Below are positions 12,505-62,720 of a stretch of 64,000 nt of DNA, in pieces. Position numbers and translations under genes: made by a program. The DNA lies in assembly GCA_963514005.1 (NCBI GenBank), contig OY740811.1:11594001-11658000 (forward strand), in the 5' to 3' direction. Position 1 is the stretch's first letter, and every line of letters starts with the position of its first letter. The notes beneath the pieces are model-generated. The model saw only the letters and a program-made list of their open reading frames with translations, did not search any database and was not told the DNA's origin. The DNA is from Raja brachyura. Lineage: Eukaryota.

Positions 12505-13528
12505 CAGGGGTGGGGAACCTTTTCATGTTGGAATGAACATTAAGTCAGTTGTGATCTAATAAAGCTGCACAGAAGAAACTTCAATTAGGTATACTTCAAA
12601 TTGTACATTCATTTGTAAAAATCTAAGTACTAAATTTCAAGAAAATTATTAAAAATTGTTAATTCTAAAGTTAACTAACCTCTTAACGATTTTGTTGTGA
12701 ATGCTTTCTAGAGTCTAGTCACATTAGAACTAAATCATGAGTTCAACAAGTGTTAAAATAGCCCTCGTGACTTACTAATGTTTTAATTGTAGCCGTCAAT
12801 CAGGGAGGATTATTTAGTTGAATCTTCTTTTACTCTTTGGTATTTAAAATACGTTCATTTTGGTCTCCAAATCTGAGGAAGGACATTATTGCCATAGAGG
12901 GAGTGCAGAGAAGGTTCACCAGATTGATTCCTGGGATGTCAGGACTGTCTTATGAAGAAAGACTGGAGAGACTCTGTTTATACTCTCTAGAATTTAGGAG
13001 ATTGAGAGGGGATCTTATAGAAACTTACAAAATTCTTAAGGGGTTGGACAGGCTAGATGCAGGAAGATTGTTCCCGATGTTGGGGAGGTCCAGGACAAGG
13101 GGTCACAGCTTAAGGATAAGGGAGAAATCCTTTAGGACTGAGATGAGGAGGACTTTTTTCACACAGAGAGTGGTCGGTCTCTGGAACTCTCTGCCACAGA
13201 GGGTAGTTGAGGCCAGTTCATTGGCTATATTTAAGAGGGAGTTAGATGTGGCCCTTGTGGCTAAGGGGATCAGAGGGTATGGAGAGAAGGCAGGTACGGG
13301 ATACTGAGTTGGATGATCAGCCATGATCATATTGAATGGCGGTGCAGGCTCGAAGGGCCGAATGGCCTACTCCTGCACCCAATTTCTATGTTTCTATTTT
13401 AAGATTAAAATAAAAAATAAATAAAATACGAATAAAAAATATATTCATAAAAGATTTGTTCCACAAAATTTGGATTCATTCAAAAGTCCGCACTTAAAGG
13501 CCTAGAAGGCCACAGGTTCCCCACCCTG
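12505..13528. mobile_element. Non-autonomous hAT DNA transposon containing a nested CR1
   Basis: TIRs caggggtggggaacct / aggttccccaccctg and a perfect 8-bp TSD atctaaac at 12497-12504 and 13529-13536. Confidence 0.9.
12857..13398 (+). mobile_element. Young CR1 LINE 3' end
   Basis: Uninterrupted frame FWSPNLRKDIIAIEGVQRRFTRLIPGM...LEFRRLRGDLIETYKIL...WNSLPQRVVEA, followed by the 3'UTR and a tttctatgtttcta tail. Confidence 0.95.
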
Positions 13529-17886: not shown

Positions 17887-18577
17887 GTTCAAGTCCATTG
17901 ATGTAGCGCAGTCGGATTTCACAGTGACCCCAGACGGCACTTACAATAGGATAAAGCTTTTTCCCTTTCAGTCCTCTATATGCTATTCCCAGATAGTGTC
18001 CATCCACCATATAACTCAGAGTTCCTTCGTCCATGTCCAAAACTACTAGGAATGCATCAGGCACAATAAAAGTCTCATGGGGCTCCAGGTAAGCTGGATA
18101 GGTCTGGCTTGGCTGATTTTTGCCATCATAGTATAGTTTGTTACGTCCAAGGTCCCAGCCCCAGGATTCACAATTACTTCCAACAAGTGCCGTGTAACCG
18201 ACAGAGTGCAAAGGAGAATCTCCTGTGGCAACGCCAACCACTGCATGTGTCCCGCGCTGTCTCATTGCCCAAGTAATTTCCCACACGTGTAGTCCTCTGG
18301 TGTATCCGACCTTGCCTCGTATGCCATCGGTACTCTGCGCCACTGGATGCCGATGAAATATTAACTTATCATCTTCTTTAACAAATACATTCAATGATCG
18401 GTCATCATTGTTCCACGAGTGCGATAACTGGACCTCGCAGGAAACTGGCGGCATGTCCAGTAGCATGTCCAGCCGAGCTGGCTTACAATAGTCGAGCCCC
18501 TGCTGCTCATGTCGAAGGGGCCTGTAAGGATCTCTCACATCCACAGTCTTGAGTCCAACAGCAACTCGTTGTCCCAT
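17887..18577 (-). CDS. SPSB1: SPRY domain-containing SOCS box protein 1, first coding exon (SPRY/B30.2 domain)
   Basis: Translation [33 protein letters not shown]...[11 protein letters not shown]...RGLHVW...[13 protein letters not shown]...SWGWDLGRN...LDMDEGTLS...[14 protein letters not shown] closely matches vertebrate SPSB1 as I recall it. Strong Kozak context (ttcaccATGG). Donor GAAC|GTAAGT at 17887/17886, phase 1. Confidence 0.96.
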
Positions 18578-24619: not shown

Positions 24620-24890
24620 AGTTTAGTTCACTTTAGAGATAAACAGGCCCTTCGGCCCACAGACCCCCGCACACCAATACGATCCGACACACATTAAGGA
24701 CAATTTTTACATTTATACCAAGCCAATTAACCTGCAAACCTGTATGCCTCAAGTATGGGGGAAGACCGTAGGACTCGAAGGAAACCTAGGCAGATCACGG
24801 GGAGAACCTACAAACTCCTTACAGGCAGGTGCTGGAACCCTGGTCTCCGGCGCCGCAAGGTTGTAACTCTAAAGGGACGCCACCGTGCAA
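24620..24890 (-). mobile_element. V-SINE
   Basis: agtttag tail, aaacaggcccttcggcccac and cacggggagaacctacaaactcc, the reverse complement of the SINE body. Confidence 0.8.
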
Positions 24891-28700: not shown

Positions 28701-29770
28701 CTACTATTGACAGACATCTACTACAAACCTGACTCCCATAGCTATCTTGACTAAACTTCTTCCCAGCCTGCTGTCTATCCCCTACTCCCAATTCTTCCAT
28801 CTACGCCGCATCTGCACCCAGGATGAGGTTTTCCATACCAGGGCCTTGGAGATGTCCTCATTCTTTAGGAAACTGGGTTTTTCTTCCATTATAGATGAAT
28901 CCCTCAGTGGGGTCTACTCGATATCACGCAGATCCGCTATTACTCTTCCCCCCCCCCCCCCCCCGATTCGTAACAAGTACAGTCCCCGTTGTCCTCACCT
29001 TCCACCCCATCAGCCGTCGCAAACACCATATAATCCTCTAACATTTTCGCCACCTCCAACAGGATCCTGCTATTGGCTACATCCACCCCTTTCGGCTTTC
29101 CGCAGAGACCATTCCCTCTGTAACTCCCTGGTCAACTTGTCCCTTCCCATCTATTCCACCCCCTCCCCCGGTACTTTCCCATGCAACCGCAGGAGATGCA
29201 AAATCTGACCCTTTACCTCCCCCCTCGACACCATCCAAAGACCCAAACAGTCTTTCCAGGTGATGCGGGAGGTTCACTTGCACCTCCTCCAACCTCATCA
29301 CTGTATCCGCTGTTCCAGGCGTCAACTTCTCTACATCGGCGAGATCAAGCGCAGGCTCAGCGATCATTTCACTGAACATCACCACTCAGTCCGTCCTAAC
29401 CAAGCTGATCTCCCAGCACTTCCACTCCCCCTCCCATTCCCAATCTGACCTTTGTCCTGGACCTCCTCCATTGTCAGAGTGAGACCCAGCGCAAATTGGA
29501 GGAACAGCGCCTCATATTTAGCTCGGGTAGCTTATACCCCAGTAATATGAACATTGACTTCTCCATCTTCAGATAGCCCTTGCTTTCTCTCTCCATCCCC
29601 CCCCCCCCTTCCCAGTTCTCCCACTAGTCTTACTGTCTCCGCCTACATGCTATCTTTGTCCCGCCCCCTCCCGTCCGAAGAAAGGTCTCGACCCAAAACG
29701 TCACCAATTCCTTCTCTCCATAGCTGCCGGCTCACCCGCTGAGTTACTCCAGCATTTTGTGTCTATCTCC
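28701..29770 (+). mobile_element. Penelope-like element (probably Neptune clade): RT C-terminus, Cys-rich linker, GIY-YIG endonuclease and pLTR; pseudogenised
   Basis: TDIYYKP-DSHSYLD; IPYSQFFHLRRICTQDEVFHTRA; GTFPCNRRRCK; FTCTSSNLI-CIRCSRRQLLYIGEIKRRLSDHFTEH; ends with ccgaagaaaggtctcgacccaaaacgtcacc and the arm shared with the hairpin elements. Confidence 0.92.
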
Positions 29771-29789
29771 TATAACCAGCATTAGTACT

Positions 29790-33667: not shown

Positions 33668-33973
33668 GCGGTCATGGTGACTCGGGGTTAGAGATGCTGC
33701 CTTACAGCGAATGCAGCCAAGGAGACCCCGGTTCCATCCCGACAGAGTGCTGTCTGTACGGAGTTTGTATGTTCTTCCCGTGACCTGCGGGGGTTCTCAG
33801 AGATCTTCGGTTTCCTCCCAAACTCCAAAGACGTACAAGTTTGTAGATTAATTGGCTTGGTAAATGTAAATATTGTCCCTAGTGGGTGTAGGATAGTGTT
33901 AATGTGCAGGGATCGCTGGTCAGCACAGACCCGATGGGCCAAATGGCCTGTTACCACGCTGTACCTCTAAACT
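33668..33973 (+). mobile_element. V-SINE
   Basis: tRNA head, V domain and ctctaaact tail; colinear with 10138-10424. Confidence 0.88.
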
Positions 33974-34124: not shown

Positions 34125-34302
34125 GAGAAGGTGGACGCAAAATGCTGGAGTAATTCAGCGGGACAGGCAGCATCTCAGGAGAGAAGAAATTGGTGACATT
34201 TCGGGTCAAGACCCTTCTTCAGTCTCAACCCGAAACGTCACCCATTCCTTCTCTCCAGAGATGCTGCCTGGCCCGCTGAGTTACTCCAGCATTGTGTCTA
34301 CA
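34125..34302. mobile_element. Penelope-derived hairpin element
   Basis: Inverted arms around gtgacatttcgggtcaagacccttcttcagtctcaacccgaaacgtcac. Confidence 0.8.
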
Positions 34303-35104: not shown

Positions 35105-36071
35105 TAAGTGCTTTAATCCTAAAATACAGTTCCACTGACGATTTTCTGGCACCCTTGGATCCAGAGTCTTACAGGATTATCTGTTTTTCTAGACCAGAAG
35201 TCACAGCCTCAGAGGAGTTGAACGGGTACTGGGATGGTCCCCAATGGTGCAGAGGGGCTCAGACACCTGCTCGCAAAGTCAGACATGGGAACTGATCTGC
35301 CAGCTCCGGCCAGACCAGGGCCCCAGCTGCAGAGCGCAGATTCGACCTGCTGAGTGGCTGTGGAAGTCCCAATGAGACAGAGATTGGCTGGTCTACCCAG
35401 CCTAGGAGCCACATATTCTGGGGGGGGGGGGGGGGGTGGTGATTTCAAGCGCACTCACCATTTTGTCTGGACCACGAGTTGCTGGAAAAATTGCATGAGG
35501 ATCTGTACTGTAAGTGACAAGATGCAAAACAATTTGCAACAGTAACTTGTGGGAATCTTAAAAATAACTAGTCCAAACTGATCAGACTACTGCTACATAG
35601 GGAAGCCAGGTCAACATGGCGAGAACAATGGTCCCAATTCCAGACTTCAATATCAAAGTCCTTGATCTCAATTGTTTCTTCAAAGACTGCATGCACTGTT
35701 GCACAAATTTAATTACACAACGCCTGCAGATCAACTGAAGGCCAAGAGACATTAACAGTTTCTTCTATTGTCTATTAGAAATGACTAGTTAACAATTTAT
35801 ATTGATTGTTGTTACGATACATTAATTCTCCAAATTTATATCAATCACCGTTTAGTCCAGGAGACATTATTTCCTGTACTCTTAACTACAGTATTTGTAA
35901 GTGCCCATACCAGATTTGGTTTAGGGCAACCCTCCAGGTACAAAAATAAATAAAGTCATCAACAGGACAGCCTGTAAATGCACTTAAAACAATGGATCAA
36001 ATTCACACATACAAATGATCAGGAAGGACAACTAAAGTTCATTCATTAATACACATTTCTGATGAAACAAT

Positions 36072-36143
36072 GGTAAACAAAATGCTGGAGTAAGAGTGAG
36101 AAGGAATGGGCAACGTTTTGGGTCGAGACTCTTCTTCAGACTG
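36072..36143 (-). mobile_element. Short Penelope pLTR insertion with 16-bp TSD
   Basis: tttctgatgaaacaat at 36056-36071 and 36144-36159. Confidence 0.8.
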
Positions 36144-37189
36144 TTTCTGATGAAACAATCAAGCCTTGTTACAAGACTGAAAGAAATTTAATATTTTCCC
36201 CACTTGACATTTAGTCAGCAAGAACTGTCCAAACATTTCAGACATTATGATTAGAGCAATCACCACATCCAGAGAAATATTCAATGTAACTGGATAGGTT
36301 AAAGAGTATTAAAGAATTTCATGCCAACTGAACCTTGGGCAATGGTATGTTTAGTTATTTAACTACACCAAATAATACGAAGCTTTAAATGGAGAATAGA
36401 TTCAGTCAATCTATGCCCTAGTTTAAAAATTAGCCAAATTCTATATGTACTTGGTCTGTTAACTACAAACTTTCCTAAACATAGTCTACTATTAACCATC
36501 AAATGTACTTTATGCCATTCCCATCATTGTTACATTTCAGGTCAGCTTAACTTTCTCAAACCAAGTGACTTAGTAAAATTGTCACAAGTGTGTATCTTCG
36601 AGGAACAAAATGTCAAGCTCTGGCCCTATAACTGGTATGAATGGACGAGCCTTCAGCCTGTTCCAGATAGTCACACTCAGCAGTTCCACACAAATGCTTC
36701 TTTATCATTGGCGCAGATATCAACCTAGGACACATCTTCAGTTGATTAGCGTGATGCCATCAGTTGCAGGCGGGGTGGTTGGGGGAGAAACTGCTCCACG
36801 TAAATAGTATCTTCCTTTAATACAATTAGCAAGCTTCAAGCAAGTAATTTGTTGCAAGACAATGGGAAAGTGATTACATTTATTTCTGCCATGTTTTAAC
36901 AGCGTTAGGCTGGAGATTCTTTATCCATACCGAAGAGATCCATTTAAAACATATAGTTTTGTTATTAGCACAAGACTACAAAAAAAAAATACAAACCAAA
37001 GTAAAATAGGGATACTTAAAAAGAGAACCAAAAAATGGCCATCCAAGCCACTCCCTCCCCACATAATTCCTCTGCGAATAGAATACCTGTTCCTATATCT
37101 CCACCCTTAAATCCATCAAGGAAGCCAGTTACACTTCCAGGTAAATGAGGAAGAGGCAAGGTAGAAGGATAGTGGTAGAAATGTGTATG

Positions 37190-37980
37190 TAGTCAAAGCC
37201 AAACAAACTTTATTGTCATTTAGAAATACATCGATAAATGCAATTCCAAACTAAATTCCGTTGCATTTGGCTCCCCATGCAACACATTAATAAACAGAAG
37301 GATAAAATGGATAAAAGGATAAATAGACAATGGTGGCAGCCCATTACATGGCATTCAGGAGTAATAGCTCGTGGGAAGAAGCTTTTGCAGAACCTTGATG
37401 TTCTGCTCCTTATGTTACGATATCTTTTGCCAGAGGGCAGCAGAGAGAACAGTCAGTGATGGAGATGTGTGGGGTCTTTTATAATACTGCTGGCCTTAGA
37501 TACGCAACGTTTGGTCGCAATATCCCCAATTGAGGGGAGAGAAGTCCCGATTATTTTTTCCGCTGTCCTCACCACTCTCTGCACGGACTTCCAGTCGGAG
37601 GCTTTACAGTCCCCAAACCAGACAGATACAGCTGGTCAAATACTCTCTATGGTGCCCCTGTGAGGATGGGATGGGGGAGGTGAGCTCTTCTCATCCGCTG
37701 CAGAAAGTGCAACCGCTGCTGCGCTCTCTTAACTGTTGATGAGATGTTATTTGACCAGGTCAGACTGTTAGTGATCTGCACCCCCAGGAACTTAGTGCTA
37801 CTGACCACCTCCACATCGCTGTCATTGATGTAAAGTGGTGTGAGACTGTGCCGATTTTTCCTGAAGTCGACGATGACCTCCTTTGTTTTTTCGACATTCA
37901 GGATCAGGTTGTTCGTATTGCACCAGTCCACCAGTTGTTTCACCTCCCCTCTGTAAGCCAGCTCATTGTCGTCCCATGTG
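37190..37980 (-). mobile_element. Rex1/Babar LINE 3' fragment
   Basis: DDNELAYRGEVKQLVDWCNTNNLILNVEKTKEVIVDFRK...KFLGVQITNSLTWSNNISSTVKRAQQRLHFL; the 3' tail has AATAAA. Confidence 0.9.
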
Positions 37981-38652
37981 AGCTGTATCAAAGGAGAGAG
38001 GGCCCCAACATAACTTCCTTAAAATTGGATCATTCAATGTTGGATTGTAAGCTACACAAGCAGAATCAGAGATGCTCTTCCAGTTTGCAAATGAGGGCCA
38101 CAACAGAAATGTTAGTATGGGAATCAAGGATAAATGGTAAGCAACTGGAAGATCGGCAGGCCTTGCTGACGGATTGCAAAAGTCAGGGGATTTGGGAAGC
38201 TGCTTTTACCCACATTTTATTGAATTAATGTTGATGGTAATACATCAAGCTGGGGACCTTTAGTTTTTAAATTATTGACAATGTGAATAAAACATGTTAG
38301 ATCTGGCATTTCCCCATCTTCACTATTGGAAATTCCCTGAACTTCAATCCTCCCAACTATTTCAACCGTGGATAAAAGCCAACTTTCCAAATGTACACAG
38401 GATTTTTGTCACCACAACTCCACAGCACAAGCAACATTTCCAGAAACCCACCATAGCTTTACTTACGAAGCTCACCCTGAATATTTATAGACTATACAGA
38501 ATGGTGTTTACAAATGTAGGAGACTTGAAGGCTCAAGGTAAAAAGCACAAATTTAGAACCAAAATTTTTGTCACACTTGTTTAACATGTCTGCACCTTTG
38601 TAGAGAAAAAAAAAAAAATTGGCCACCCACTCCCAACCACCTCTACCCACTG

Positions 38653-38816
38653 GGCTGGAGAAACTCAGCGGGTGCAGCAGCATCCAAGGTCTGAAGAAGG
38701 GTCTCGACCCGAAGCGTCGCCTATTTCCTTCGCTCCTTGGATGCTGCTGCACTCGCTGAGTTTCTCCAGCCTTTTGTGTACCCTCGATTCTCCAGCATCT
38801 GCAGTTCCTTCTTTAA
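38653..38816 (+). mobile_element. Young Penelope-derived hairpin/hammerhead element with 15-bp TSD
   Basis: TSD cacctctacccactg at 38638-38652 and 38817-38831; short inverted arm followed by ggtctgaagaagggtctcgacccgaagcgtcgcct and tail. Confidence 0.92.
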
Positions 38817-40073
38817 CACCTCTACCCACTGAATCGGTCCAATTCTGAAGCAGACCTTTGTAGCAATAAACTAGAGTGCCACAGGATTACTTGAGAAAAT
38901 AGTAGTTAAGCTAAGTACTCCACAAGCAGTATCAAATGGCACCATTTTAAAAGTACAAACATCAACCAAAGCTGTTACCATTCTCATCTCTGGTAGAAAC
39001 AGAAGCCCCCAACATACAACTACTGAAAGCACAGCAAACCAGTCTTGTCCACAAGCAAGCTGCAAATTTTAGAAGCTCCTTAGGTAGACATTACTGTTCA
39101 GGATTCTCCTCAATCTAGTCCTTTCCTATCCCCACTAAGAGAGAAAATCAACAGTGGAGAATTTGATGCATCTTATGAAATACATTTGGAAAAGACTCAG
39201 CCCACAGGAAGTGGATGACAACAAAATACTTTCAGAGCACAATGTAGAACAGTTTAGTCCTGGACCAGACAGGCATTAAAGTCACATCGTTTGGGAGAAA
39301 TGGCGGCTACTATTGTTATACTGCATTCTGCCTTACCCAACTAACCACTCTGATCAACAATTCCAAGGCAAATAGACCACAAACTTTAAACATGCAACAG
39401 TAACTTTACTCCTGCGCACTACAAAAATTCCATTGCAAAAAAACAGATCATTTATTCATCAACCCAAATTTTAGACAACACCCCCCCCCCTCCCCAGCAA
39501 ACCAGTCAGTCTAGCCTTGCCATACTGACCATTCAGCAAACGGGCCACATCCCAGCTACGAAATAACGTTTTGTAGAAGCAAACTGCAGTGCCATTGGAG
39601 AATTTCAGTCACAAATCCAGTCTCACTGTCCACATTTGGAAAGAAGATTTACCAGAGAATCCCAGACACTATAAGGTTGACCTTCAATACAAACCAACCC
39701 AACGGTGAAAACAGCATCTCGACATATTATAACAGGGAATGTAGTGGCCAATATACTCGACCAACACCTCCCAGCACCAAAGGTCCCTCCCCAAATCACA
39801 ACACAACTACACCAAGTGTAGCCAGCAACCTCACTCGCAATGCATTACCTCTTCACCTCTTAAAAGGTAGAGACTTACAATTATAGGGACTGTGGAATAT
39901 CTGCCACAAATTAATTTGCCTTTAAATTACAGGTTTACATTTTCTCATGTCAGCACAAACCAAAACTCAATGTCAAATGGGGGCAGAGTCTTAAAACCAA
40001 TTTCAATTTAAGCTTTACAAAGAAATAGAGCCAATCTCATTAGAAACTATTCAGCCTTTCATCAATTCCTGAT

Positions 40074-40141
40074 TGTCATCAATTTCAGCACAAAGACAAT
40101 AAATGCATGTCATCAATTTCAGCACAAAGACAATAAATGCA
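40074..40141. repeat. Perfect 34-bp tandem duplication
   Basis: tgtcatcaatttcagcacaaagacaataaatgca occurs twice in direct tandem. Confidence 0.95.
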
Positions 40142-40193
40142 TTTGCACAAAGACGTAGGCGCCTCTCTTCTTGATTTGTTTACTGAAGTATAA

Positions 40194-42509: not shown

Positions 42510-42777
42510 ATAGCGCTGAAACAGGCGCGTCGGCGCACGGAGTCCACGACCAGCTATTCCCCGCACATTAACACTCTCCTACACACTAGGCACTTACAAT
42601 TATACAAAGCCAATTAACCTACAAACCTGTGGAAGGAAACCAGAGATCCCAGAGAAAACCCATGCATGTCTCGGTGGGAATGGGCAAACTCTGTACAGAC
42701 AAGCACCCGCAGTCAGGTTTGAACCCGGGTCTCTGGCATTGTAAGGCTGCACCTCTACTGCTGCGCCACCGTGCTGT
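42510..42777 (-). mobile_element. V-SINE
   Basis: Reverse-complement head gcacggtggcgcagcagtagag...cccgggttcaaacc. Confidence 0.8.
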
Positions 42778-43720: not shown

Positions 43721-44722
43721 CTGAAGTCAGTTTCAATTGCTGGAGCAACGATTTTTCTCATTTTACACAAATGCTTCATCTGATGACAATATTATGGCAG
43801 ATCATTGGTGCAAGTCACTTCGCAAATCTTATATCAGAAAAGATGAAAGCCAGCAACACCTACTCTGCCAGAACATATTTTAGCCTTTAAGGAAAGGTTT
43901 AACAAAGACTTTATTTGAAACAAACATGGCCTAATCAGGCAATGATCACCACCAAATGGGAGCATGTTATATGGACAGAGGCAGCAAAAAACTTTTACAC
44001 GCTATCTAGTCAAGTCATAATATAATACTACAATCAAGCCACACAGGTAGGCAAAGGGAAAAATACCAGAGCACAGTATATAGTGTTACAGCAAAAGTAC
44101 AGATATTAAAAAGCACAAGAGCTGTAATAATGTAGGTTGGGGCTGCACACGTGTCTGAAAAGGGTCTCGACCCAAAACCTCACCCATTCTTTTTCTTCCG
44201 AGATGCTTAGTGTACAAGATAAGTCCCAGCCATGCATGTGCAGATTTTTATCTATGCCTTTGACAAATGTTAAATGTTAGGGCGAGGGCAACGTTGGGCA
44301 CACTTTTACCCCCGTTGTCTGCCGACGTGCATTGTGGCCCATCCTCGACCCCCAGATGAACTGGAAGACGGCCCAGGTGATCCCTGTGGCATAGGAGGGA
44401 GGAACAGGCCACACTTGCGCCAAGTACAGAAGCCCCGAGAGCACATGTGATGCACACCTTTGATCTCACAAAATAAGTTGTAGCACTCAAGTTTCCAGAA
44501 TGGGTTTTGATTCAGAGGTGAACAATCAACAATAAGGCAAGACTAACACCCAGGAACAAAAGGCTGCTCTCACCAATTGGTACGGAACACCTTTTACTAC
44601 AGAGTCTGATCAACTTCCTTCAGACTTAGTCTATTGCGACCACATCCTGAATTTCATTTCTTTATCTTTCTAGCAAGCCAATTGTGGCATCTTCATCAGA
44701 TGCTGCTACATACAACCCACTG

Positions 44723-44946
44723 GGGTTACACAAAAGGCTGGAGAAACTCAGCGGGTGCAGCAGCATCTAAGGAGCGAAGGAGATAGGCGACGTTTCGGGT
44801 CGAGACCCTTCTTCAGGTCTGAAGAAGGGTCTCGACCCGAAACGTCGCCTATCTCCTTCGCTCCTTAGATGCTGCTGCACCCGCTGAGTTTCTCCAGCCT
44901 TTTGTGTAACCCTCGATTCTCCAGCATCTGCAGTTCCTTCTTTAAC
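44723..44946 (+). mobile_element. Young Penelope-derived element: perfect 94-bp inverted repeat, hammerhead motif, 34-nt tail, 15-bp TSD
   Basis: Arms 44723-44816 and 44819-44912 are exact reverse complements; TSD acatacaacccactg at 44708-44722 and 44947-44961. Confidence 0.95.
44815..44850 (+). ncRNA. Minimal type I hammerhead ribozyme motif
   Basis: AGGT-CTGAAGA-A-GGGT(CTCG)ACCC-GAAAC-GTC^-GCCT: catalytic core CUGAnGA and GAAA, 4-bp stem II, palindromic ACGU stem III, GUC cleavage triplet, stem I AGGU/GCCU. Activity is untested. Confidence 0.75.
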
Positions 44947-46229
44947 ACATACAACCCACTGTTAGGTTTGCACCTTTTCTTAGAATTAAGGCAGGTTAAC
45001 ACTACATGCCCTGAAGAGATGAATAGCCAATAGAACAACATTTAATCCTTCAAGTTGATTTTCAGAACTTTGATAGTGAATTACAGGCTACGATTGTTCC
45101 TAACTTCTTATATAACATTTCATTTCCTTTTGGATCCTCAAATGTCATCTTGGGTTTCTCCAAGATGACAAATCTCTGCTAATATCGCACTGGTAGATAA
45201 AACAGAACCAACCTCACACAAGTAAATATACTTCTCTTAGAGCACTTCAAATAAGAAAACAGCACATGTTAATAACCTCCAGATTCTGTATTGGACAAAG
45301 AAACAAATCAAGCCTCACTTGCAAGGCCCTGCCAGATGGCTGTGGAGGCTGCTCAAGGCACAGATGAAAGCTAGTTTAGTTTCCACGCAACACAGTCAAC
45401 TAAACCCTTGTTATAGCAGAACATGGGGAGTGGAAAATAGCCGTTACAGCCAATTGTCCGAGTAATAGAGTATCATTGCACAAGTAGTAGCAACAAAGAA
45501 CCATAGATGCTGTTTAATACACAAAAGGACAGGGCTGGAGTAACTCAGCATCTCTGGAGAACACTGATAGACGTTTCGAATAGAGACCTTATTTCAGACA
45601 CACGATCTGGAACTGGACCGAGAATCCATGTGACTTGACGGCCCTGGCCTGTTGGTGGCCAAGGGAAAGAGGCAAGGATCAGTGGAGTCAGTTACTCCAG
45701 GCACTAATTCATTACGTGGTTTGATTAATTGCAAGCCCCCAAGTACCACATGCAAACTGCCTTTGCCCTGCATTTTATAGTTAAATACACATGATCCACT
45801 AATTTGTTGCAACATTTCTGAACAGATACGAGGCACACCATTTTTAACGTACAGGCAATTTACTAGCTGTCTGTCAGAGTTTCAATGTACACCAGACCTC
45901 TCTACAGAATGGGTTTAAAAATGATTAAGAGCCACTGTCTTTCAAATGAAAATTAGAGTCTCCTCCGCTACCTCAGCAAGATAATAGCTGGGAAGTCATC
46001 TCAGTGCTTTAATCTTCAGTAATCCTGATCAGGAAGTGCTATTTCAGATACTTTAGCATCTGGACAGTGGAAATTGCTGCTGCATTGACCATATCATCAA
46101 CTGAAATACTTTGAACCTCTAACTCAATATACAGTAGGCACCTAGTAGATGTGCATCATTCCGAAATGAACTAACTTCTGGTGTGCAGTCATCTACATGC
46201 ACCCAGGGCAGTTATGAAAAGATCAGTCA

Positions 46230-47452: not shown

Positions 47453-48237
47453 TTGCCAGCTCTTTTCTTCTCTCGTTTCCTAACTTTGCACTACACTATC
47501 CATATATCCCCGTACTGTTGCAGAGCAGAGTATTTAGCAATCCAGTTCAGCACATACAATGCTTGCTCAGGTACTTGCATCCAAAAATGCATGGTGGATT
47601 GTAAAAATAACACAAACCCAATCATTTGCCCAAATCATGACACAACATATTAAATGACAAATTAAAAGGCAGTGCTCTTACAATTGCACATGTTGGCACA
47701 AAGGCCATTTCTAACTGAAGTGGCTGAACTACCAATATTAAGAATTTTAAAAGGCACTTAACTTGCATGGACCACCCCCCACCCACACCCCAGGCTCAAG
47801 AATTGACAACCATAGCACTGACAAGTTGTGCAAAGAATGAGATTCAGATTGGAGAACCACTGATTGATAAATTCATTATTAAGATGCACGATCACCAACT
47901 CACAACAACCAAGAGACCAGCTCACTTTGGACTTCTAACCATATCACAGACAGCAGGAGAGAGCAGATACCAGTGCATCAAATCCAAACAGAGGGTCAGC
48001 TTGTCGGGCCATCTGTATACAGAACAAACTGGGTGGACAAAGCAGGTTTGTGCAATGGACTAGATTGACAAAGATGTGGCTGACACATCCTCCCATGGTC
48101 AGTACAACATATCCTGTTGTGCTGCAGCAAGTAAGAATTTCATTGTTTTATCTGGGACATATGACAGTAAAACACTCTTGACAACAGCCAACCTGGGACA
48201 GTAGGAGCAATAGTGACACAATAGCTTAAAAGCTCAA

Positions 48238-48860
48238 CATAGAAAATGGGTGCAGGAGGCGGCCATTCGGCCCTTCGAGCCAGCACCACCATTCATTGTG
48301 ATCATGGCTGATCATCCCCTATCAATAACCCGTGCCTGCCTTCTCCCCATATCCCTCGACTCCACTAGCCCCTTGAGCTCTATCTAACTCTCTCTTAAAT
48401 CTATCCAGTGACTCGGCCTCCACTGCCCTCTGTGGCAGGGAATTCCATAAATTCACAACTCTCTGGGTGAAAACGTTTTTTCTCACCTCAGTCTTAAATG
48501 ACCTCCCCTTTATTCTAAGACTGTGGCCCCTGGTTCTGGACTCGCCCCACATTGGGAACATTTTTCCTGCATTTAGCTTGTCCAGTCCTTTTCCAATTTT
48601 ATATGTTCTATAAGATTCCCCCTCATCCTTCTAAACTCCAGTGAATACAAGCCTAGTCTTTTCAATCTTTCCTCATATGATAGTCCCACCATCCCAGGGA
48701 TCAATCTCGTGAACCTACGCTGCACTGCCTCAATCACAAGGATGTCCTTCCTCAAATTAGGAGACTAAAACTGTATGCAATACTCCAGATGTAGTCTCAC
48801 CAGAGCCCTATACAACTGCAGAAGCACCTCTTTACTCCTATACGGAAATCCTCTTGTTAA
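48238..48860 (-). mobile_element. CR1 LINE 3' end
   Basis: RKDILVIEAVQRRFTRLIPGM...LEFRRMRG / FPMWGESRTRGHSLRIKG...WNSLPQRAVEA, with one frameshift. Confidence 0.95.
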
Positions 48861-53520: not shown

Positions 53521-54222
53521 CTGTTGTGCCCTGTATTTTAATCCCTTCCCTCTGTACTTTAAATGCAGTTTTACTCCAACTTGTTCCAGTTTTGGTTATC
53601 AACACAAAATGTTCCCCATTTCTTTTGAGAAGTTGGCAGAACCAAGCAGTTCCCACTGCTGTCTTTATAATTCCAGCATTGAATGAATGGTAACCTGTAA
53701 TCTTTCCCAACACTTAGTAAGAAAAATAGCTGCTAGATTGTTTTAGAATCTTATAATGACCTACAGCAAACATTACAAATCAGAATAGATGGGATGATTC
53801 CAGGCACACTGATCAAAAAGTCAGGGAGGAAGGTACACGTTCCAAACATTATTTCCTTGTTGCCAGGGTCACTGACGAAAACACCATCGAGAACACTGCA
53901 CACCCGACAATGCAAGCACAAGTCAATATTCTTTACTCGAGATTAATGCTCGAGACCAGGGTAAAGCAGAATCACTCCTCCCAAGGCTGCTACTCACCAT
54001 ACAGTGGAACAGTGAACTACACAAATCCAAAAGAAAATGCACAGTCAGCACAGCTTCCATTCAGAAACATGCTACCACGAGTTTCATGCAGTAATAAAGA
54101 ATTGCCATTGAGCATCTCTAAAATAACCAAACATCAAATGTTTCATGTCCCAATTATGTATTGATGCAATTAGTACTGCAATATTTGTAGGAAGAAAGGT
54201 TAACCAAATGTCAGTATTTAAC

Positions 54223-54410
54223 GTAGACAAAAGTGCTGGAGGAACTCAGTGGGTGCAGCAGCATCTATGGAGCGAAGGAAATAGGCAACGTTTCGGGGAG
54301 AAACACTAAGGTTTAATTCGCTCCATAAATGCTGCTGCACCCGCTGAGTTCCTCCAGCACTTTTGTCTACCTTCGATTTTCCAGCATCTGCAGTTCCTTC
54401 TTAAACACTT
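54223..54410 (+). mobile_element. Penelope-derived hairpin element with 14-bp TSD
   Basis: TSD tgtcagtatttaac at 54209-54222 and 54411-54424; arms gtagacaaaagtgctggaggaactcag / ctgagttcctccagcacttttgtctac. Confidence 0.9.
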
Positions 54411-54567
54411 TGTCAGTATTTAACCTTCTCCAGCAAAAAGCTACACCACTACAACCTTACAATAAAAATAATGACTAAAAAAAAAAAAACACTTCCAGTT
54501 CATGAACACAAATAATGATCAATGTTCCTGCCCTGCATTGCACCAGTCCATAGTTCATTGAGAGCAA

Positions 54568-54851
54568 TAGAAAATAGGTGCAGGAGTAGGTCATTCGGCC
54601 CTTCGAGCTTACACCGCCATTCAATATGATCATGGCTGATCATCCAACTCGGTATCCTGTACCTACCCTCTCTCCATACCCCCTGATCCCTTCAGCCACC
54701 AGGGCCACATCTAACTCCCTCTTAAAGAGAGCCAATGAACTGGCCTCAACTACCTTCTGTGGCAGAGAATTCCACAGATTCACCACTGTGAGAAAAATGT
54801 TTTTCTCATCTCGGTCCTAAAAGACTTTCCCCTTATCCTTAAGCTGTGACC
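54568..54851 (-). mobile_element. CR1 LINE 3' end
   Basis: Close reverse complement of 13100-13395. Confidence 0.92.
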
Positions 54852-55265
54852 CAAGTAGCCTGGCCAGGCTTTTGCCAGAGACCCCAATTAAGGCAGTTGC
54901 AATGGACACCACCACCACCCATCCCAAAATGCCAAGCCACCAAGACCGAGGCTCTCAAAACCTCTCGTGGAAAGCACAACATTCCACTAATTCATAGGAA
55001 TTTGACTCGCTTCTCAAAATGGTGTCGAGACTGGCACTAGTCCAGTTTAAATACCGCCAGCTCCCAAATTACTCATCCGCCCAACCAGAATGTCCCATTG
55101 TTATCTTAGCTCAGAACTCAAGAATTAGTGGAAGCCCTCACTGGGACTGCCTGCGAGTTCCCCAAGAGGTGGATCAGGCATTCAAATATTTGTCACTGGT
55201 TTAAATAATAATTTCCCCCAAATGTAACCTCATGTCATTTAATTTAAAAATAAAATCCCAAGTCT

Positions 55266-55729: not shown

Positions 55730-57998
55730 AAGTCTTAATACCAGGCTGCTCTGACAGACGAACAAATATGTTAGCCTCAAAACGGTCACACAGGACCAGA
55801 CACTTAACAGCTGCGAACTGTTTTAAACAAGTTTAGGGAAATGATAGATCAGCTTGCTTTTACTGTTGGCATGGGTATTTTCCAGATTAACTAAGATGAT
55901 TTCAGTCATGCCCTCAAAACAAGTCGTAGCTACAATAACATATATGCTGCAGAGAAGGAATTTCTGGTGAAGGAATTATTATTCTGGAAGAATTACTCCC
56001 ACTTAGTATGGCACTAAAGAACATGGACAGATGTGTTGCGCCTCCAACATGCTGGCTCAGTCTCACGGAGGCTGTGCACTAGAAAGATTCTCACTATGTC
56101 ATCTACATGTGCAGTCTTGGGCCGTTAACTGTAACAATTGACAATGCTCAGCGATTTGAGATGGAGAGAATTTAAAAAGAAACATGTGCCAATCCTTGAC
56201 CATCACAGGCCACAGAACTACCCAAAAGTAATTACAGAAAAAAGCTGTCAAGACACAATTTCAAATTTGGGTAAAACAAAAACATACAAAGGGCTGGAGT
56301 AACTCAGCAGGTCAGACAGCTTCCACAGAGATCATGGAAAAGGTGACTTTTGGGTCAGGACGTTTCATCAGACTCAGCTTCTGAATAGCAACTATTGTGG
56401 GGTGGGGGGGGGGGGGGGGGGGAGAGAAGAAGATATAATAGATGTGGCAACTCAAGAACAAGGCAAGTCTATCCCTTTATTGTTCATTGCCAGTACCTAT
56501 GTCAATTATACACTGGACTCCAGAAGAGATTGAAGGTGCGCACGCCACGAGAGTGCTGCCACAAGTTGTTCAAAATAGTCCATCCACCCAGCAAGCCAGA
56601 TTACTTTTAAATACTCAGTTTGCCCAGTGGGTTCACTCCAACTTGGGTCAAGCTTTGTAGCACCTTTGTATTCTAGACCAGTTATGCCCCATACCCCAAC
56701 CAACCATTCTAGGTGGTGAGAGCAGGTATTGAGGGGGGTGGTGTTGGGACACCAGAACCAACCGTTGATCCTTCCTGAGATGTTGTGGGCCCAACTCAAC
56801 AAAACGCCAGTGCAGGGAGGTGCCCAACAGAGAACCCCAATAATATAATGGCATATTATAAAACTATTTCGTTGTTTTGATAGACGTGTATAAAATTGTT
56901 TTATAGTTTAACTGCATTTTTAAAGGCATTTTAAATTCTCATGTAGCATTGGGATTGGGTTGCCTGGTTTGTGTGTTTGTTCACATGTATATAGTTTATT
57001 AGTGAATACGAGGTCAGTTATTGTCCTACAGCACAAGTGTGTAGGTTGGATACTCTGTTGGCATTGCCTTGGTTTTCTTAGTTGAGCGCTTATCCTGGTG
57101 TTGGAGCACACGCCTTGTGTTTTAACAGTAATACCCACCTACATTTACAATTGCCATGATCAGCCCTGCTTCCTTGACAAACTCACCTCTTGTCTTTCAG
57201 ACACTAAAATCTTTTTTAGCCCATTTTTGTGCTCAAACGTATATGCAACTTCTTTGGATGAATTTCACAAGAAGAAGAAAATAAGCCATTGCTGCTGTTC
57301 GGGGTGTCCAGCAAAGATCTGTAATAGTTCTGACGTGGATTATGGCAGACACTAGCCTACTGCCCGCATTAATGCGGCTGCAACCTAGTGTGAACTTCAG
57401 GCCCTGGGGCATTTCGTGTTTACAGAAGACTTCTGGGACACGGTCCAGGAATCCATTAACAGTGGGGGGGCAGTGGAATGAACACTGTGGCATTTCTTGA
57501 AAGTGACAAAGCCATTTGATACAAAGGCCATTTTTCCTTTGATATATTCCTTTGCCCCCCCCCGCAATCAATACGACACCTGGTGTTTGGCCATCAACTG
57601 CATGCTTGCACTTCAAAATTGACAACCAAAGCCTCGCCTGTTGCATTGTTACAGAACAGATCACGCGTCTCCAGCCTTTTGTGTACACACGTTTCCATCA
57701 TTGTGATGCAAACTGTGCACAAGAGTGAATTGAAGAAGATTCATCGTCTACACCCAGAGGTGGGATTACAGCAGACTGCATCAATCGGTTTCACAGTTTT
57801 TCCAGTAGAGAAAATCCCCTCGGTCTCCTTAGTCAAGATGACAGAGGATTCAAACTCCAATAAAACGGCAACTGAAATGTATCAGGAAACAGATTCATCC
57901 GAAGCAAAAAAAAGTTTAATACAAATTCAGAATTATTTAGATTATGCACCAAGGATAATTTCAAGAGGATTGAACAAGCAATAAACACATTTTAGCGG

Positions 57999-58183
57999 CG
58001 GTAGACAAAAGTGCTGGAGAAACTCAGCGGGTGAGGCAGCATCTATGGAGCAAAGGAAATGGGCAACATTTCAGGTTGAGACCCTTTTTCAGACTGTTCA
58101 TTGAAAGCTGCCTCACCCGCTGAGTTTCTCCAGCACTTTTGTCTACCTTTAATTTTCCAGCATCTGCAGTTCCTTCTTAAACA
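57999..58183 (+). mobile_element. Penelope-derived hairpin element
   Basis: Arms ggtagacaaaagtgctggagaaactcagcgggtgaggcagc / gctgcctcacccgctgagtttctccagcacttttgtctacc plus tail. Confidence 0.88.
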
Positions 58184-59254
58184 ATACATTTTAACTGCTG
58201 ATGGTTGAAACCAGATTTTTCTGACTGTAGAGCAGGAATCTTACCCAAGGACAGGTGCAAGACTTAACAGGTAGATACTGGAAGATGATTATTCAAAGGG
58301 GAACTGGAGAAAAAGTTGGTCTGTGTGAGACGAACTAGAAGGAATTTTGTCCCATCTAATTGTGAATCTTTGGATTACACACATCTAACCATCTTTAAAA
58401 TGTACTCAATCTGGCGATGGATCTGAACTTAGGTAAACAGGCAAGAACATTGAATGAAGACAGTGGATGTCAACCATGTCACTGACTGAAGACCATACCA
58501 TAGGAGACCCCATTTATTTTACTACACAAGTAACACCGAATCACAGCCAGAAACCCAACCTTTGGTTTGCACAACTGACCATTGATGCTTGCAATCCTAA
58601 GACCAACAAAGAAGAGTCTCGATCCAAAAATGTTGCCCATCCCTTCCCTCCAGAGATGCTGCCTGTGCCGCTGAGTCTCTACTAATGGACAATTTTTGCA
58701 TATTAACTGTGAAAGTATTCCATCAGAGTATTAACAATGCAGCACTGTATCCAAATGTCTAACTGATAACAGCCCTCGGGGATTGATGTTGCCAGCACGT
58801 GCATGCAACATGAACACTCATCACCATTTAAATGTCCCCGTCAACCCTGGAGGTGGAACTTCCCTCAAGCAGAGAACTCAAACAGCCAATACCCAGATAC
58901 CCCTCAGGCGGGCCATAAACCACAGCAACAGAAGACTCATTGTTGACCTTCATGTGATGACTCAGAAGATCCTGGGCCTCAAGGTAGTGTATCAGGCACG
59001 TCATCACTTACTGGTTCTACACAAATACAACCTGGACAACATACACAACTTATTTATTATTATTATTTTTTAAGTACATTAAAAAAATGATTCTATACAA
59101 TTAAAGTTCTCAAGCCATGCTAGTAAATATTTTTCCATCTTCCTATCATGGGCTTTAATTTCTTTGTTGCCCACTTTTAAAATGAATATCCACAGCACTT
59201 CACAGGCAATTCATTCCAATGATTAGTTATCAATAATGCATGATCATTCCTATC

Positions 59255-60234: not shown

Positions 60235-60808
60235 GGAGCAGCAGTAGATGTGTTGCCTTAAACCCCTGTCCCACAGTACGAGTTCATTTCAAGAGCTCTC
60301 CCGAGTTTGCCCTGATCTGAACTCGGAGATTTGCAATAATGGCCACTCGTCGGTACTCGGGGCTCTCATGGACATGTTGCAACATGTTGAAAAATCTTCA
60401 CACGTCTTCCCGTGCTTACCTGCCATTAGCGAGTCTTCCCTAGTACCAACGTACCCGCTACGTTCATTCTCCGTGCTTACAACGAGTTTGATTTTTTTTT
60501 AAATAATTCTGGAGAGCTCTTGGAATGAACTGGTACAGTGGGACAGGGCTATTACAGCGTCAGAGAGCTGGGTTCAATCTGGACTATGGGTGCTGTCTGT
60601 GTGGAGATTGTATGTTCTCAGTGACCACATAGGTTTTCTCCCAGTGCTCCGGTTTCATCCCACATGGCAAAGCGTGCAGGTTTGTAAATAGCTCCTGTAA
60701 ATTATTCCTAGTGTATGGTATAGAGCTAGTGTATGGGTGATTGCTGGTCGGTGCGGACTCAGTGGGACGAAGAGGCAGTTTCCACGCTGTATCTCCAAAA
60801 CTAAAACT
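60235..60808 (+). mobile_element. V-SINE split by the MITE
   Basis: The head resumes at ttacagcgtcagagagctgggttcaatc, followed by the V domain and aaactaaaact tail. Confidence 0.8.
60261..60551. mobile_element. PIF/Harbinger-type MITE, third subfamily, inserted in a V-SINE head
   Basis: TIRs aacccctgtcccacagtac / gtacagtgggacagggcta. The SINE sequence gcc-TTA-cagcg is split with TTA duplicated. Confidence 0.88.
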
Positions 60809-62065: not shown

Positions 62066-62354
62066 TTAAAACCACCAACATATGTTGTCAGAACCAAAGG
62101 CCAGACAGTCGCTTTTCAAATAAAACTGAAAGAACCGCATGAAGTCACATTTACATTACATCCCAAAGCTATTTTTGGGCACTTCAAATATCCAGCACAG
62201 CTTCATTTCAAAAGATCTTTGACAAAGTCAAGACATTAACTCTGCTCCTCTTTACAAAGATGCAGTCCAACTAGCTAAACCTTTCCAGCATTTCCCATGA
62301 TAACAGGAATCTTTTCTGCCTAAACAATGTTTCACCTGTATCCAATTATCAATT

Positions 62355-62720
62355 AAGATAGACACGAAATGCTGGAGTAACTCAGTGGGTCAGGCAGGTG
62401 ATATTTCAGGTCTGGACCCATCTCCAGAGATGCTGCCTAACCATCTAGGTTACTCCAGCACTTTGTTTGTATGCTATTGCTGGAAGAAACCAGCATCTGC
62501 AGCTCTTCATTTCTCCATCTATCACATTCCAGGCTTTGTCCCAATCCTACTTTGCTTTCCCAGCTTTCTCTCCACCTCCCTCCCCACTATAATTAGTCTG
62601 AAGAAAAGACTCAACCGAAAACACCCCCCACCCCCATTTCAGATGCTCCCTGACCCATCAAGTTCCTCCAACACTGTGCATTGCTCAATATTCCAGCATC
62701 TCCAGTTTCTCGTGTCTCTA
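62355..62720 (+). mobile_element. Degenerate Penelope-derived hairpin/pLTR fragments
   Basis: atagacacgaaatgctggagtaactcagtgg...ttactccagcac and agtctgaagaaaagactcaaccgaaa. Confidence 0.7.

What the first reader, a model, noticed from the sequence alone, without database searches (positions are those of the whole stretch)
44708..44961. Hammerhead-ribozyme-bearing Penelope-derived mini-retroelement forming a perfect 94-bp palindrome
Seen: a ~224-bp insertion made of a 94-bp arm, a 2-nt spacer, the exact reverse-complement arm and a 34-nt unpaired tail, between 15-bp direct repeats. The forward arm begins with a complete minimal type I hammerhead (AGGU CUGAAGA A GGGU-CUCG-ACCC GAAAC GUC^ GCCU), with an extra A before stem II and a palindromic ACGU stem III. 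The same arm terminates the RT/GIY-YIG Penelope fragment at 28701-29770. Known: Penelope-like elements carry minimal hammerheads in their pLTRs that are thought to cleave as dimers, and they often insert with an inverted pLTR and a short 3' tail. Inference: these units are a ribozyme-headed non-coding retroelement family mobilised by a Neptune-type PLE, which looks superficially like a MITE and could be misannotated as one.
Basis: partly seen in the sequence, partly recalled or inferred. Interest (0 to 1): 0.75.

Follow-up and report, generated by a model that had tools for sequence, protein, structure and literature searches.

The report
Head-to-head Penelope terminal-repeat insertion
This is a very young insertion of two back-to-back copies of the short ribozyme-bearing end of a Penelope-type retrotransposon in a cartilaginous fish: a known kind of element, but so abundant and regular here that its copies could show how these elements build their inverted ends.

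Summary
The anatomy is exactly as reported: perfect 94-bp arms, a 2-nt spacer, a 34-nt tail and a 15-bp duplication. The arm is the pseudo-LTR (pLTR) end of a Neptune-type Penelope-like element (PLE) of a cartilaginous fish. It is not a MITE.

The window holds 46 arms at 30 loci. Fifteen loci are head-to-head, 13 of them with a tail on one arm only, and 7 loci have clear 14-16 bp duplications.

The minimal hammerhead motif is real by sequence, but Rfam misses it, copies show no covariation, and the hairpin buries it. No arm starts at the cleavage site (0 of 46). About 15 start at the ribozyme's 5' edge, so templates were uncleaved.

Best model: both nicked target strands prime short cDNAs at the two internal start sites known for PLEs. 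These run to the RNA 5' end and are joined head-to-head, so each palindrome is built at insertion rather than copied as a unit.

Inverted pLTRs, tails, duplications and minimal hammerheads are all published PLE features. New member of a known kind, with a useful mechanistic lead.

The parts
44708..44722 (+). Left copy of the 15-bp target-site duplication; ends in ACCCACTG
   Evidence: 15/15 identical to 44947-44961
44723..44816 (-). Tail-less pLTR arm, inverted (positions +1 to +94 counted from C3 of the hammerhead core)
   Evidence: 94/94 complementary to the right arm
44785..44816 (-). Minus-strand minimal hammerhead core; only 1 stem-I pair; predicted cut after 44789 (read on the minus strand)
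   Evidence: descriptor scan
44817..44818 (+). Spacer GT; equals the first two bases of the family's usual 5' start (GT before CTGAAG)
44815..44850 (+). Plus-strand minimal type I hammerhead; core 44819-44846, predicted cut after 44846; the AG at 44815-44816 is shared with the left arm
   Evidence: descriptor scan and folding; no Rfam hit; no covariation
44819..44912 (+). Tail-bearing pLTR arm; all 6 CpG intact
44913..44946 (+). 34-nt PLE 'tail'; the element end probably runs 2 nt further (AC), overlapping the duplication
   Evidence: the same tail end is seen in other copies
44947..44961 (+). Right copy of the target-site duplication
28704..29573 (+). 5'-truncated, frameshifted Neptune-type PLE ORF: RT thumb end, Cx4Cxx(C) linker, GIY-YIG endonuclease
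   Evidence: tblastn with Stegostoma tigrinum P0001, E 3e-43; full-length relatives carry RVT_1 plus GIY-YIG; alignment
29574..29672 (+). Pyrimidine-rich 3' UTR (82% C+T) between the ORF and the hammerhead
29673..29788 (+). pLTR arm that ends the ORF fragment; about 84% identical to the focal arm; hammerhead core decayed
38638..38831 (+). Closest sister insertion (124/129 identical): short inverted arm, full arm plus tail, 15/15 duplication also ending in ACCCACTG
54209..54424 (+). Same subfamily, head-to-head, tail on the right arm, 14/14 duplication, filler at the junction
57984..58198 (+). Same subfamily, head-to-head; the tail-less arm reaches the hammerhead edge, the tail arm starts near +50; duplication 13/16
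36056..36159 (-). Solo tail-less arm running from the hammerhead 5' edge to the arm end, with a 16/16 duplication
62353..62710 (+). Inverted arm plus an ORF-less partial tandem (arm and tail, 86-nt pyrimidine-rich spacer, arm and tail); period about 215 nt, retrozyme-like

Best explanation
It is a very young, ORF-less insertion of two copies of the pLTR end of a Neptune-type Penelope-like retrotransposon, made by that element's RT and GIY-YIG protein. SHOWN here: pLTR homology, head-to-head layout, one-sided tail, 14-16 bp duplications, two preferred 3' ends and one preferred 5' end. INFERRED steps: (1) The endonuclease nicks both target strands about 15 bp apart. (2) Each nick primes reverse transcription on uncleaved pLTR RNA, one at the tail end (about +128) and one at the arm end (about +94), the two internal start sites reported for PLEs. 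(3) Both cDNAs run to the RNA 5' end at the ribozyme's 5' edge, or stop earlier. (4) The two cDNA ends are joined head-to-head by end joining with little or no microhomology and filled in. The focal copy is the case where both ran to the edge. The hammerhead is inherited cargo, probably dimer- or protein-dependent in the parent transcript and not used to make this insertion. Confidence in the identity alone is about 0.93; the number given covers identity plus route.
For: ORF, UTR and arm are contiguous at 28704-29788. 46 arms at 30 loci, 0 hits in 5 controls. 15 of 30 loci are head-to-head, none tail-to-tail; 13 of 15 have the tail on one arm, 2 on neither, 0 on both (read). 3' ends: 17 of 46 at +82 to +102, 17 of 46 at +118 or beyond, 12 elsewhere. 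5' starts: 20 of 46 at +2 or earlier, of which 15 are clear true ends; 0 of 46 at the cut site. Duplications scoring 10 or more at 7 of 30 loci against 1.5% in the null. In at least 4 of the 13 tailed pairs (11k, 12k, 54k, 58k) the tail-less arm reaches further 5' than the tailed arm, which simple fold-back of a tail-primed strand cannot give. In young loci the arms resemble each other at least as much as other copies: 94/94, 41/41, 52/54. In vitro, the Anolis PLE protein nicks and extends both strands, is modelled as a dimer, has two RT start sites that delimit the tail, and does not need hammerhead cleavage (PMC11167929).
Against: The in vitro data come from the Poseidon clade, not Neptune. 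Asymmetric junctions and fillers could instead come from later central deletions of unstable palindromes, which would remove the polarity argument. The profile starts at -4, so 5' ends were judged by the lack of pyrimidine-rich upstream sequence, known from only 4 copies. No duplication scoring 10 or more was found at 23 of 30 loci. In old loci the arms are no closer to each other than to other copies. No RNA data were available. Arkhipova et al. read such junctions as self-priming (PMC3846280).
Confidence: 0.55

Rival explanations
1. Same PLE origin, but the second arm is made by fold-back or self-priming: one cDNA runs from the tail to the ribozyme edge, folds back and copies itself, stopping 34 nt short. 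Later central deletions diversify the junctions.
For: Perfect arm identity at the focal locus. The family start reads CAG-T-CTG, a micro-palindrome. Self-priming was proposed for rotifer Penelope inverted junctions (PMC3846280). Arms share private variants in young loci.
Against: At least 4 tailed pairs have the longer 5' reach on the tail-less arm. No terminal fold-back hairpin is predicted for the cDNA ends of the 5651 copy, and the focal cDNA folds only into the ribozyme's own stems. Solo tail-less arms with perfect duplications exist (36k), so the arm end works as an independent RT start.
Confidence: 0.25
2. One reading: the palindromic unit is a discrete non-coding retroelement family, copied as a whole by a Neptune PLE in trans.
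For: ORF-less copies dominate: 1 ORF fragment for 30 loci. A subfamily (38k, 44k, 54k, 58k) is distinct from the ORF-linked arm. An ORF-less tandem exists at 62k. Non-autonomous PLE derivatives are known (PMC8557442; bioRxiv 2026.07.22.740005).
Against: All 14 printed junctions differ. The outer end of the left arm differs between the two youngest copies (about +83 versus +94). RT would have to traverse a hairpin of about -203 kcal/mol. A single-arm short RNA remains possible and is compatible with the best explanation.
Confidence: 0.1
3. A non-LTR retrozyme route: hammerhead cleavage of tandem transcripts gives circular monomers, which are reverse-transcribed and inserted.
For: The motif is a minimal type I hammerhead. 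The 62k locus has a period of about 215 nt, close to the 220-240 bp coral repeats (PMC7229834). Retrozymes were found in the one chondrichthyan sampled (bioRxiv 2026.07.22.740005).
Against: No tandem array of the unit in the window; only 1 of 30 loci has a partial tandem. The focal locus is inverted, not tandem. 5' ends cluster at the ribozyme edge, which a circle does not predict, and never at the cut site.
Confidence: 0.07
4. A MITE or other DNA transposon with terminal inverted repeats.
For: Perfect long inverted repeat, small size, high copy number, flanking duplication.
Against: One-sided tail in 13 of 15 pairs, solo arms, variable arm ends and contiguity with a PLE ORF. Duplications of 14-16 bp are longer than those of DNA-transposon superfamilies (2-11 bp, recalled).
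Confidence: 0.02
5. An assembly or library fold-back artefact.
For: Perfect palindromes can arise as sequencing chimeras (recalled).
Against: It is bounded by a 15-bp duplication and a tail, flanks are unique, and 14 other loci of graded age show the same layout.
Confidence: 0.01

Closest known systems
EN+ Penelope-like elements with inverted pLTR, tail and TSD (D. virilis Penelope, A. vaga Pen2/Pen2a; PMC2377424, PMC3846280, PMC8557442)
   Same: Head-to-head inverted pLTR, a 30-40 bp tail on one side only (34 nt here; a 34-bp repeat in D. virilis; 31 bp in A. vaga), flanking duplication, 5' truncation.
   Different: Published examples flank an ORF or captured DNA and have 8-10 bp duplications in A. 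vaga. Here nothing lies between the arms, duplications are 14-16 bp, and this ORF-less form is half of all loci in the window.
[quoted passage not shown]
   Same: CUGANGA and GAAA core, extra base before stem II, G10.1-C11.1 pair, palindromic zero-loop stem III. That paper already notes pairs of motifs on opposite strands 100-700 bp apart and many solo motifs from truncated PLEs.
   Different: Stem II is 4 bp here (7-8 bp in Schistosoma). Stem I is only 2 bp in the family majority. The two motifs abut directly. No cartilaginous fish entry was found in the searchable supplement.
Anolis Poseidon PAc (Frangieh et al. 2024, PMC11167929)
   Same: Hammerhead upstream of two internal RT start sites that bound the tail; both target strands nicked and extended; ribozyme cleavage dispensable in vitro.
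   Different: Poseidon clade (no linker Zn-finger); AT-rich target preference. Head-to-head ORF-less products and a 5' end pile-up were not described in the parts read.
Animal non-LTR retrozymes (PMC7229834; bioRxiv 10.64898/2026.07.22.740005)
   Same: Short, non-coding, type I hammerhead, PLE pLTR-derived, dispersed monomers common.
   Different: Defined by head-to-tail tandem units and circular RNAs. The focal locus is head-to-head and its arms lack the upstream part of the monomer.
MITEs
   Same: Small, high-copy, hairpin-forming, flanked by a duplication.
   Different: Asymmetric ends, variable arms, long duplication and retroelement ancestry.

Membership tests
EN+ Penelope-like element (derivative) | Arm is the terminal repeat of an RT plus C-terminal GIY-YIG ORF | tested here: met
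   ORF end, UTR and arm contiguous at 28704-29788. 6 of 10 relatives scanned hit both RVT_1 and GIY-YIG at E<0.01, 2 only GIY-YIG, 1 only RVT_1, 1 neither. The ORF-linked arm is about 84% identical to the focal arm.
EN+ Penelope-like element (derivative) | PLE-type RT core | tested here: inconclusive
   The core is absent from the window (5' truncation); present in relatives.
EN+ Penelope-like element (derivative) | Inverted pLTR with an optional 30-40 bp tail on one side | tested here: met
   34-nt tail; 13 of 15 head-to-head loci have a one-sided tail.
EN+ Penelope-like element (derivative) | Target-site duplication of variable length | tested here: met
   14, 14, 15, 15, 15, 16, 16 bp at 7 of 30 loci; 3 weaker candidates.
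Neptune clade | CX2-5CxxC linker motif upstream of GIY-YIG plus two cysteines inside GIY-YIG (shared with Nematis; PMC8557442) | tested here: met
   C-x4-C-x2-stop in the fragment, aligned with C-x4-C-x2-C in most relatives; CIRC before YIG.
Neptune clade | RT phylogeny groups with Neptune rather than Nematis | not testable with these tools
   No RT core in the window and no named Repbase references. Only Neptune and Poseidon were reported in vertebrates (bioRxiv 2026.07.22.740005).
Minimal type I hammerhead | Conserved core, bulge before stem II, G10.1-C11.1 pair, palindromic stem III | tested here: met
   Descriptor scan, 3 hits against 0.025 in controls; the family majority keeps every core base.
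Minimal type I hammerhead | Stem I of 4-5 bp | tested here: inconclusive
   4 bp at the focal plus strand, but 2 of the bases are shared with the other arm. Third pair in 2 of 15 copies. A near-identical outside copy reads like the 2-bp form.
Minimal type I hammerhead | Covariation in the stems | tested here: not met
   1 cell with a change on both sides among 140; covariation score equal to the shuffles. Copies are neutrally decayed, so power is low.
Minimal type I hammerhead | Match to Rfam hammerhead models | tested here: not met
   No hammerhead family among the 22 matches up to E=5.
Minimal type I hammerhead | Self-cleavage as a dimer or with protein | not testable with these tools
   The active dimer fold scores -14.5 kcal/mol against -26.3 for the best dimer fold; needs an assay.
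Non-LTR retrozyme | Head-to-tail tandem units, each with an intact hammerhead | tested here: not met
   No array; the focal locus is inverted; the one partial tandem at 62k has a decayed motif.
Non-LTR retrozyme | Circular RNA monomers | not testable with these tools
   No RNA data.
MITE | Fixed symmetrical terminal inverted repeats | tested here: not met
   One-sided tail, variable arm ends, solo arms.
MITE | Short constant duplication | tested here: not met
   14-16 bp, differing in sequence.
Discrete palindromic non-autonomous family | Shared junction and shared termini among copies | tested here: not met
   14 of 14 printed junctions differ; later central deletions could mask sharing.

The most novel reading that the evidence does not exclude
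The pLTR's transcription start lies at the ribozyme's 5' edge. There the parent reads as a full initiator match (2 of the 3 scored copies that keep upstream sequence), with MTE- and Bridge-like motifs overlapping the hammerhead. The arms would then be 'strong-stop'-like run-off cDNAs from the 5' pLTR, paired by twin priming on a PLE protein dimer. Copies that keep or regenerate the initiator at their junction could be re-transcribed as roughly 130-nt self-sufficient, promoter-and-ribozyme SINE-like RNAs, a pLTR-only parasite filling several percent of this fish genome. This would explain in one model the inverted pLTR, the one-sided tail and solo pLTRs of all PLEs, and show that the ribozyme sequence doubles as a core promoter.
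Probability: 0.25. Interest if true: 0.75.

Novelty: new member of a known kind. Interest (0 to 1): 0.42.

Why it matters
How PLEs form tandem and inverted pLTRs and tails, and what their hammerheads do, is stated as unresolved in PMC8557442 and PMC11167929. This family covers 6.5% of the window, so, if the density holds elsewhere, one genome offers a very large set of short, complete insertions whose two RT starts, 5' ends, junctions and duplications can be tabulated. The empty cut site (0 of 46) is genomic evidence, matching the in vitro result, that uncleaved RNA is the template. Practically, such loci invite misannotation as MITEs or microRNA precursors (one search gave sub-threshold miRNA matches at sister loci). 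If transcribed within a host intron, they are long double-stranded RNA and unstable DNA palindromes. The element class itself is not new.

Tried and rejected
Rfam scan: no hammerhead; only sub-threshold hairpin matches. Pfam on the ORF fragment: nothing for the 165-aa stretch or the three read-through frames, and GIY-YIG only at E 0.13 for a 51-aa piece; identity rests on tblastn and relatives. Covariation in the hammerhead: none. Conserved stem between arm and tail: 6 pairs, 0 compensatory, in 13 copies, so not supported as a structure. Idea that the empty target sites are decayed old copies: 0 of 7 rebuilt sites hit the profile; local scores for 3 of them were reached by 1.9%, 43% and 3.8% of controls, not significant. 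Idea of ongoing arm-to-arm conversion: old loci show no excess arm identity, rejected. Wider duplication search at 10 further loci found 1 clear case (12k) and 9 without. Tandem arrays of the unit: none. Upstream UTRs of 62k, 29k and 5.6k do not align convincingly; only 5651 and 9494 share about 80 nt. The DPE position matches at most 4 of 5 in all 15 copies scored; promoter motifs were sought after the fact and are degenerate. Literature searches for this family in cartilaginous fish or for ORF-less inverted pLTR pairs gave nothing specific. Repbase, Dfam and subscription papers were not searchable, and Lunse et al. 2017 is not held, so absence from print is not established. One supplement file of PMC4209133 and the bioRxiv supplements could not be seen and may list such motifs. 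No structure prediction, complex prediction or prokaryotic genome scan was run.
Full report
OBSERVATION. The described anatomy is exact. Arms 44723-44816 and 44819-44912 are 94/94 complementary, the spacer is GT, the tail is 34 nt (44913-44946), and a 15/15 direct repeat lies at 44708-44722 and 44947-44961. The next-longest perfect short-spacer inverted repeat in the window is 11 bp, and the duplication finder reached a score of 14 in 1 of 400 random pseudo-loci. All 6 CpG of the arm are intact in a window with CpG observed/expected of 0.38. With perfect arms and a perfect duplication, this marks a very young insertion (inference).

HOST. The window holds SPSB1 coding exons at 17888-18577 and 1087-1209 on the minus strand. 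The best named relative is from the shark Heterodontus francisci at 93%, and the next listed hits are at 83%. The host is therefore a cartilaginous fish. The locus lies 26 kb upstream of the start codon; whether it is intronic is not shown.

PARENT ELEMENT. A Stegostoma tigrinum protein (P0001) aligns to 28704-29573 in three frames at E 3e-43: end of the RT thumb, a C-x4-C-x2-stop linker and a GIY-YIG domain with internal cysteines. There is no RT core, and tblastn with all 150 listed relatives found no other PLE ORF piece in the window. Of 10 relatives scanned, 6 hit both RVT_1 and GIY-YIG, 3 one of them, 1 neither. The linker motif marks Neptune or Nematis (PMC8557442, passages), and only Neptune and Poseidon were reported in vertebrates (bioRxiv 10.64898/2026.07.22.740005, parts 1-3 of 5). 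So Neptune is likely but untested by phylogeny. After a 99-nt pyrimidine-rich UTR comes an arm 76/91 identical to the focal one, a different subfamily rather than 'the same arm'. The end of P0001 (LMKGLRPKR) resembles the focal hammerhead read in frame (LKKGLDPKR). This suggests the same ORF-UTR-ribozyme order in the zebra shark (inference).

THE FAMILY IN THE WINDOW. A profile from seven copies finds 46 arms, against 0 in 5 controls, at 30 loci covering 6.5% of the window. Read: 15 of 30 loci are head-to-head, none tail-to-tail; 13 of 15 carry the tail on one arm, 2 on neither, 0 on both. 3' ends are bimodal: 17 of 46 at +82 to +102, 17 at +118 or beyond, 12 elsewhere, some of them by profile overshoot (+1 is C3 of the core). 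Duplications scoring 10 or more occur at 7 of 30 loci and measure 14-16 bp (null rate 1.5%). Three more are weaker (13/16, 10/11, 11/14) and the rest show none. A solo tail-less arm has a 16/16 duplication (36056-36159). These features exclude a MITE. They match PLE inverted pLTRs with a one-sided 30-40 bp tail (PMC3846280, passages and Discussion; PMC8557442; PMC2377424, passages and one section; PMC8969392, passages).

THE HAMMERHEAD. A minimal type I descriptor matches 3 places, both focal arms and 34222 (-), against 0.025 per control window. The family majority keeps every core base. The features listed as typical by Cervera and de la Pena are present: bulge before stem II, G10.1-C11.1 pair and palindromic stem III (PMC4209133, parts 1-2 of 4). 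That paper already reports motif pairs on opposite strands and many solo motifs. Results against: no Rfam match, no covariation among 16 copies, and decay concentrated at CpG sites, as for neutral DNA. The AG of the proposed AGGU stem I is shared with the opposite arm. The family majority, the 58k member and a 28/29-identical outside read-through indicate AGTCTG and a 2-bp stem I. The sister at 38k also reads AGGTCTG, so a real subfamily variant joined by microhomology is possible; unresolved. The active dimer fold is -14.5 kcal/mol (-6.7 with 2 bp) against -26.3 for the best dimer fold, and the whole insertion folds as one hairpin of about -203 on either strand. Dimer cleavage by PLE hammerheads is cited from a review (PMC6765202, passages); the primary paper was not held.

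THE INFORMATIVE PATTERN. 20 of 46 arms start at +2 or earlier and 0 of 46 at the cut site (+27 to +31). Of the 20, 3 continue into pyrimidine-rich UTR, 1 is profile overshoot and 1 is doubtful, leaving 15 clear ends at the ribozyme's 5' edge. Their upstream flanks are unrelated DNA or the opposite arm. Three more look like edge starts by eye. The templates were therefore not cleaved, in line with the finding that ribozyme mutants do not affect insertion by the Anolis element (PMC11167929, parts 1-2 of 4; its supplements gave no hits). The edge could be the RNA 5' end. Two of three scored copies that retain upstream sequence match the initiator YYANWYY 7/7 with the A at that edge. The intact arm gives 9/12 to MTE and CGACC at +18 (Bridge part I is CGANC), while DPE reaches only 4/5 (consensus strings from PMC4581360, passages; the DPE string is recalled). 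D. virilis Penelope has an internal TATA-less promoter, though its start site is upstream of the ribozyme. This was sought after the fact and is a lead only.

MECHANISM. Shown in vitro for a Poseidon element: both strands are nicked and extended, and RT starts at two internal sites that bound the tail; the protein is modelled as a dimer. Inferred here: nicks about 15 bp apart each prime a short cDNA, one from the tail end and one from the arm end. Both run towards the RNA 5' end and are joined head-to-head. All 14 printed junctions differ, several with filler bases. In at least 4 of 13 tailed pairs the tail-less arm reaches further 5', which fold-back of a tail-primed strand cannot give. The caveat is that palindromes often lose their centres later (recalled), which would keep fold-back alive (0.25 against 0.55). 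Whether the RNA was the autonomous message or a short non-coding one is a separate open question. The ORF-less partial tandem at 62353-62710 (period about 215 nt) shows that such derivatives exist, as described for retrozymes (PMC7229834, passages).

NOVELTY. Every component is published for PLEs. I found no description of this family, or of ORF-less head-to-head pLTR pairs as a dominant product, in searches. Repbase, Dfam and subscription journals were out of reach. Verdict: new member of a known kind; interest 0.42, carried by the 5' end pile-up and the chance to test PLE integration models on many natural products.

Noticed in passing
window 38645-38652 and 44715-44722: The duplications of the two youngest copies both end in ACCCACTG, one CpG change from the arm's own ACCCGCTG motif. 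The chance that two random 8-mers are equal is 3.8e-5 (post hoc). This may reflect target preference or insertion into decayed copies; the empty-site test was not significant.
   Followed up: partly
window 62353-62710: Inverted arm plus an ORF-less head-to-tail repeat with an 86-nt pyrimidine-rich spacer and a period of about 215 nt; it looks like a decayed retrozyme-type derivative.
   Followed up: partly
window 5578-5658 and 9420-9499: Two copies share about 80 nt (75%) of pyrimidine-rich sequence upstream of the hammerhead, a UTR different from the ORF-linked one. At 5651 it ends in a pyrimidine tract plus CAG, which also reads as a splice acceptor; in D. virilis an intron ends at helix I.
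   Followed up: partly
window 6420-6526: Solo arm whose first 7 bases are an inverted copy of the end of its own candidate duplication (10/11), suggesting template switching onto the target.
   Followed up: no
window 17888-18577 and 1087-1209 (minus strand): SPSB1 coding exons, 93% and 95% identical to the Heterodontus francisci protein.
   Followed up: yes
window 12822-13403, 48225-48770, 6817-7171, 54567-54852: Repeated fragments, 75-88% alike, with a translation resembling the 3' end of CR1/L2-type LINEs (label recalled; no significant Pfam hit; coordinates).
   Followed up: no
window 37647-38018 (minus strand): Fragment of another retrotransposon: ALKBH8_N at E 3e-11 and weak RVT_1.
   Followed up: no
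window 1345-1593, 10141-10421, 24641-24853, 33673-33973, 42548-42773, 60548-60799: A further dispersed repeat of 150-300 nt, 66-76% alike, unclassified.
   Followed up: no
window 40074-40142: Perfect 34-nt tandem duplication, two copies.
   Followed up: no
window 38659-38766, 54239-54354, 58018-58130, 34188-34248: Sister palindromes give sub-threshold Rfam matches to microRNA and plastid UTR families; a source of false miRNA calls.
   Followed up: yes
P0001 (Stegostoma tigrinum LOC125456532): An annotated 'uncharacterized protein' that is a PLE ORF read through its UTR into the hammerhead region.
   Followed up: partly
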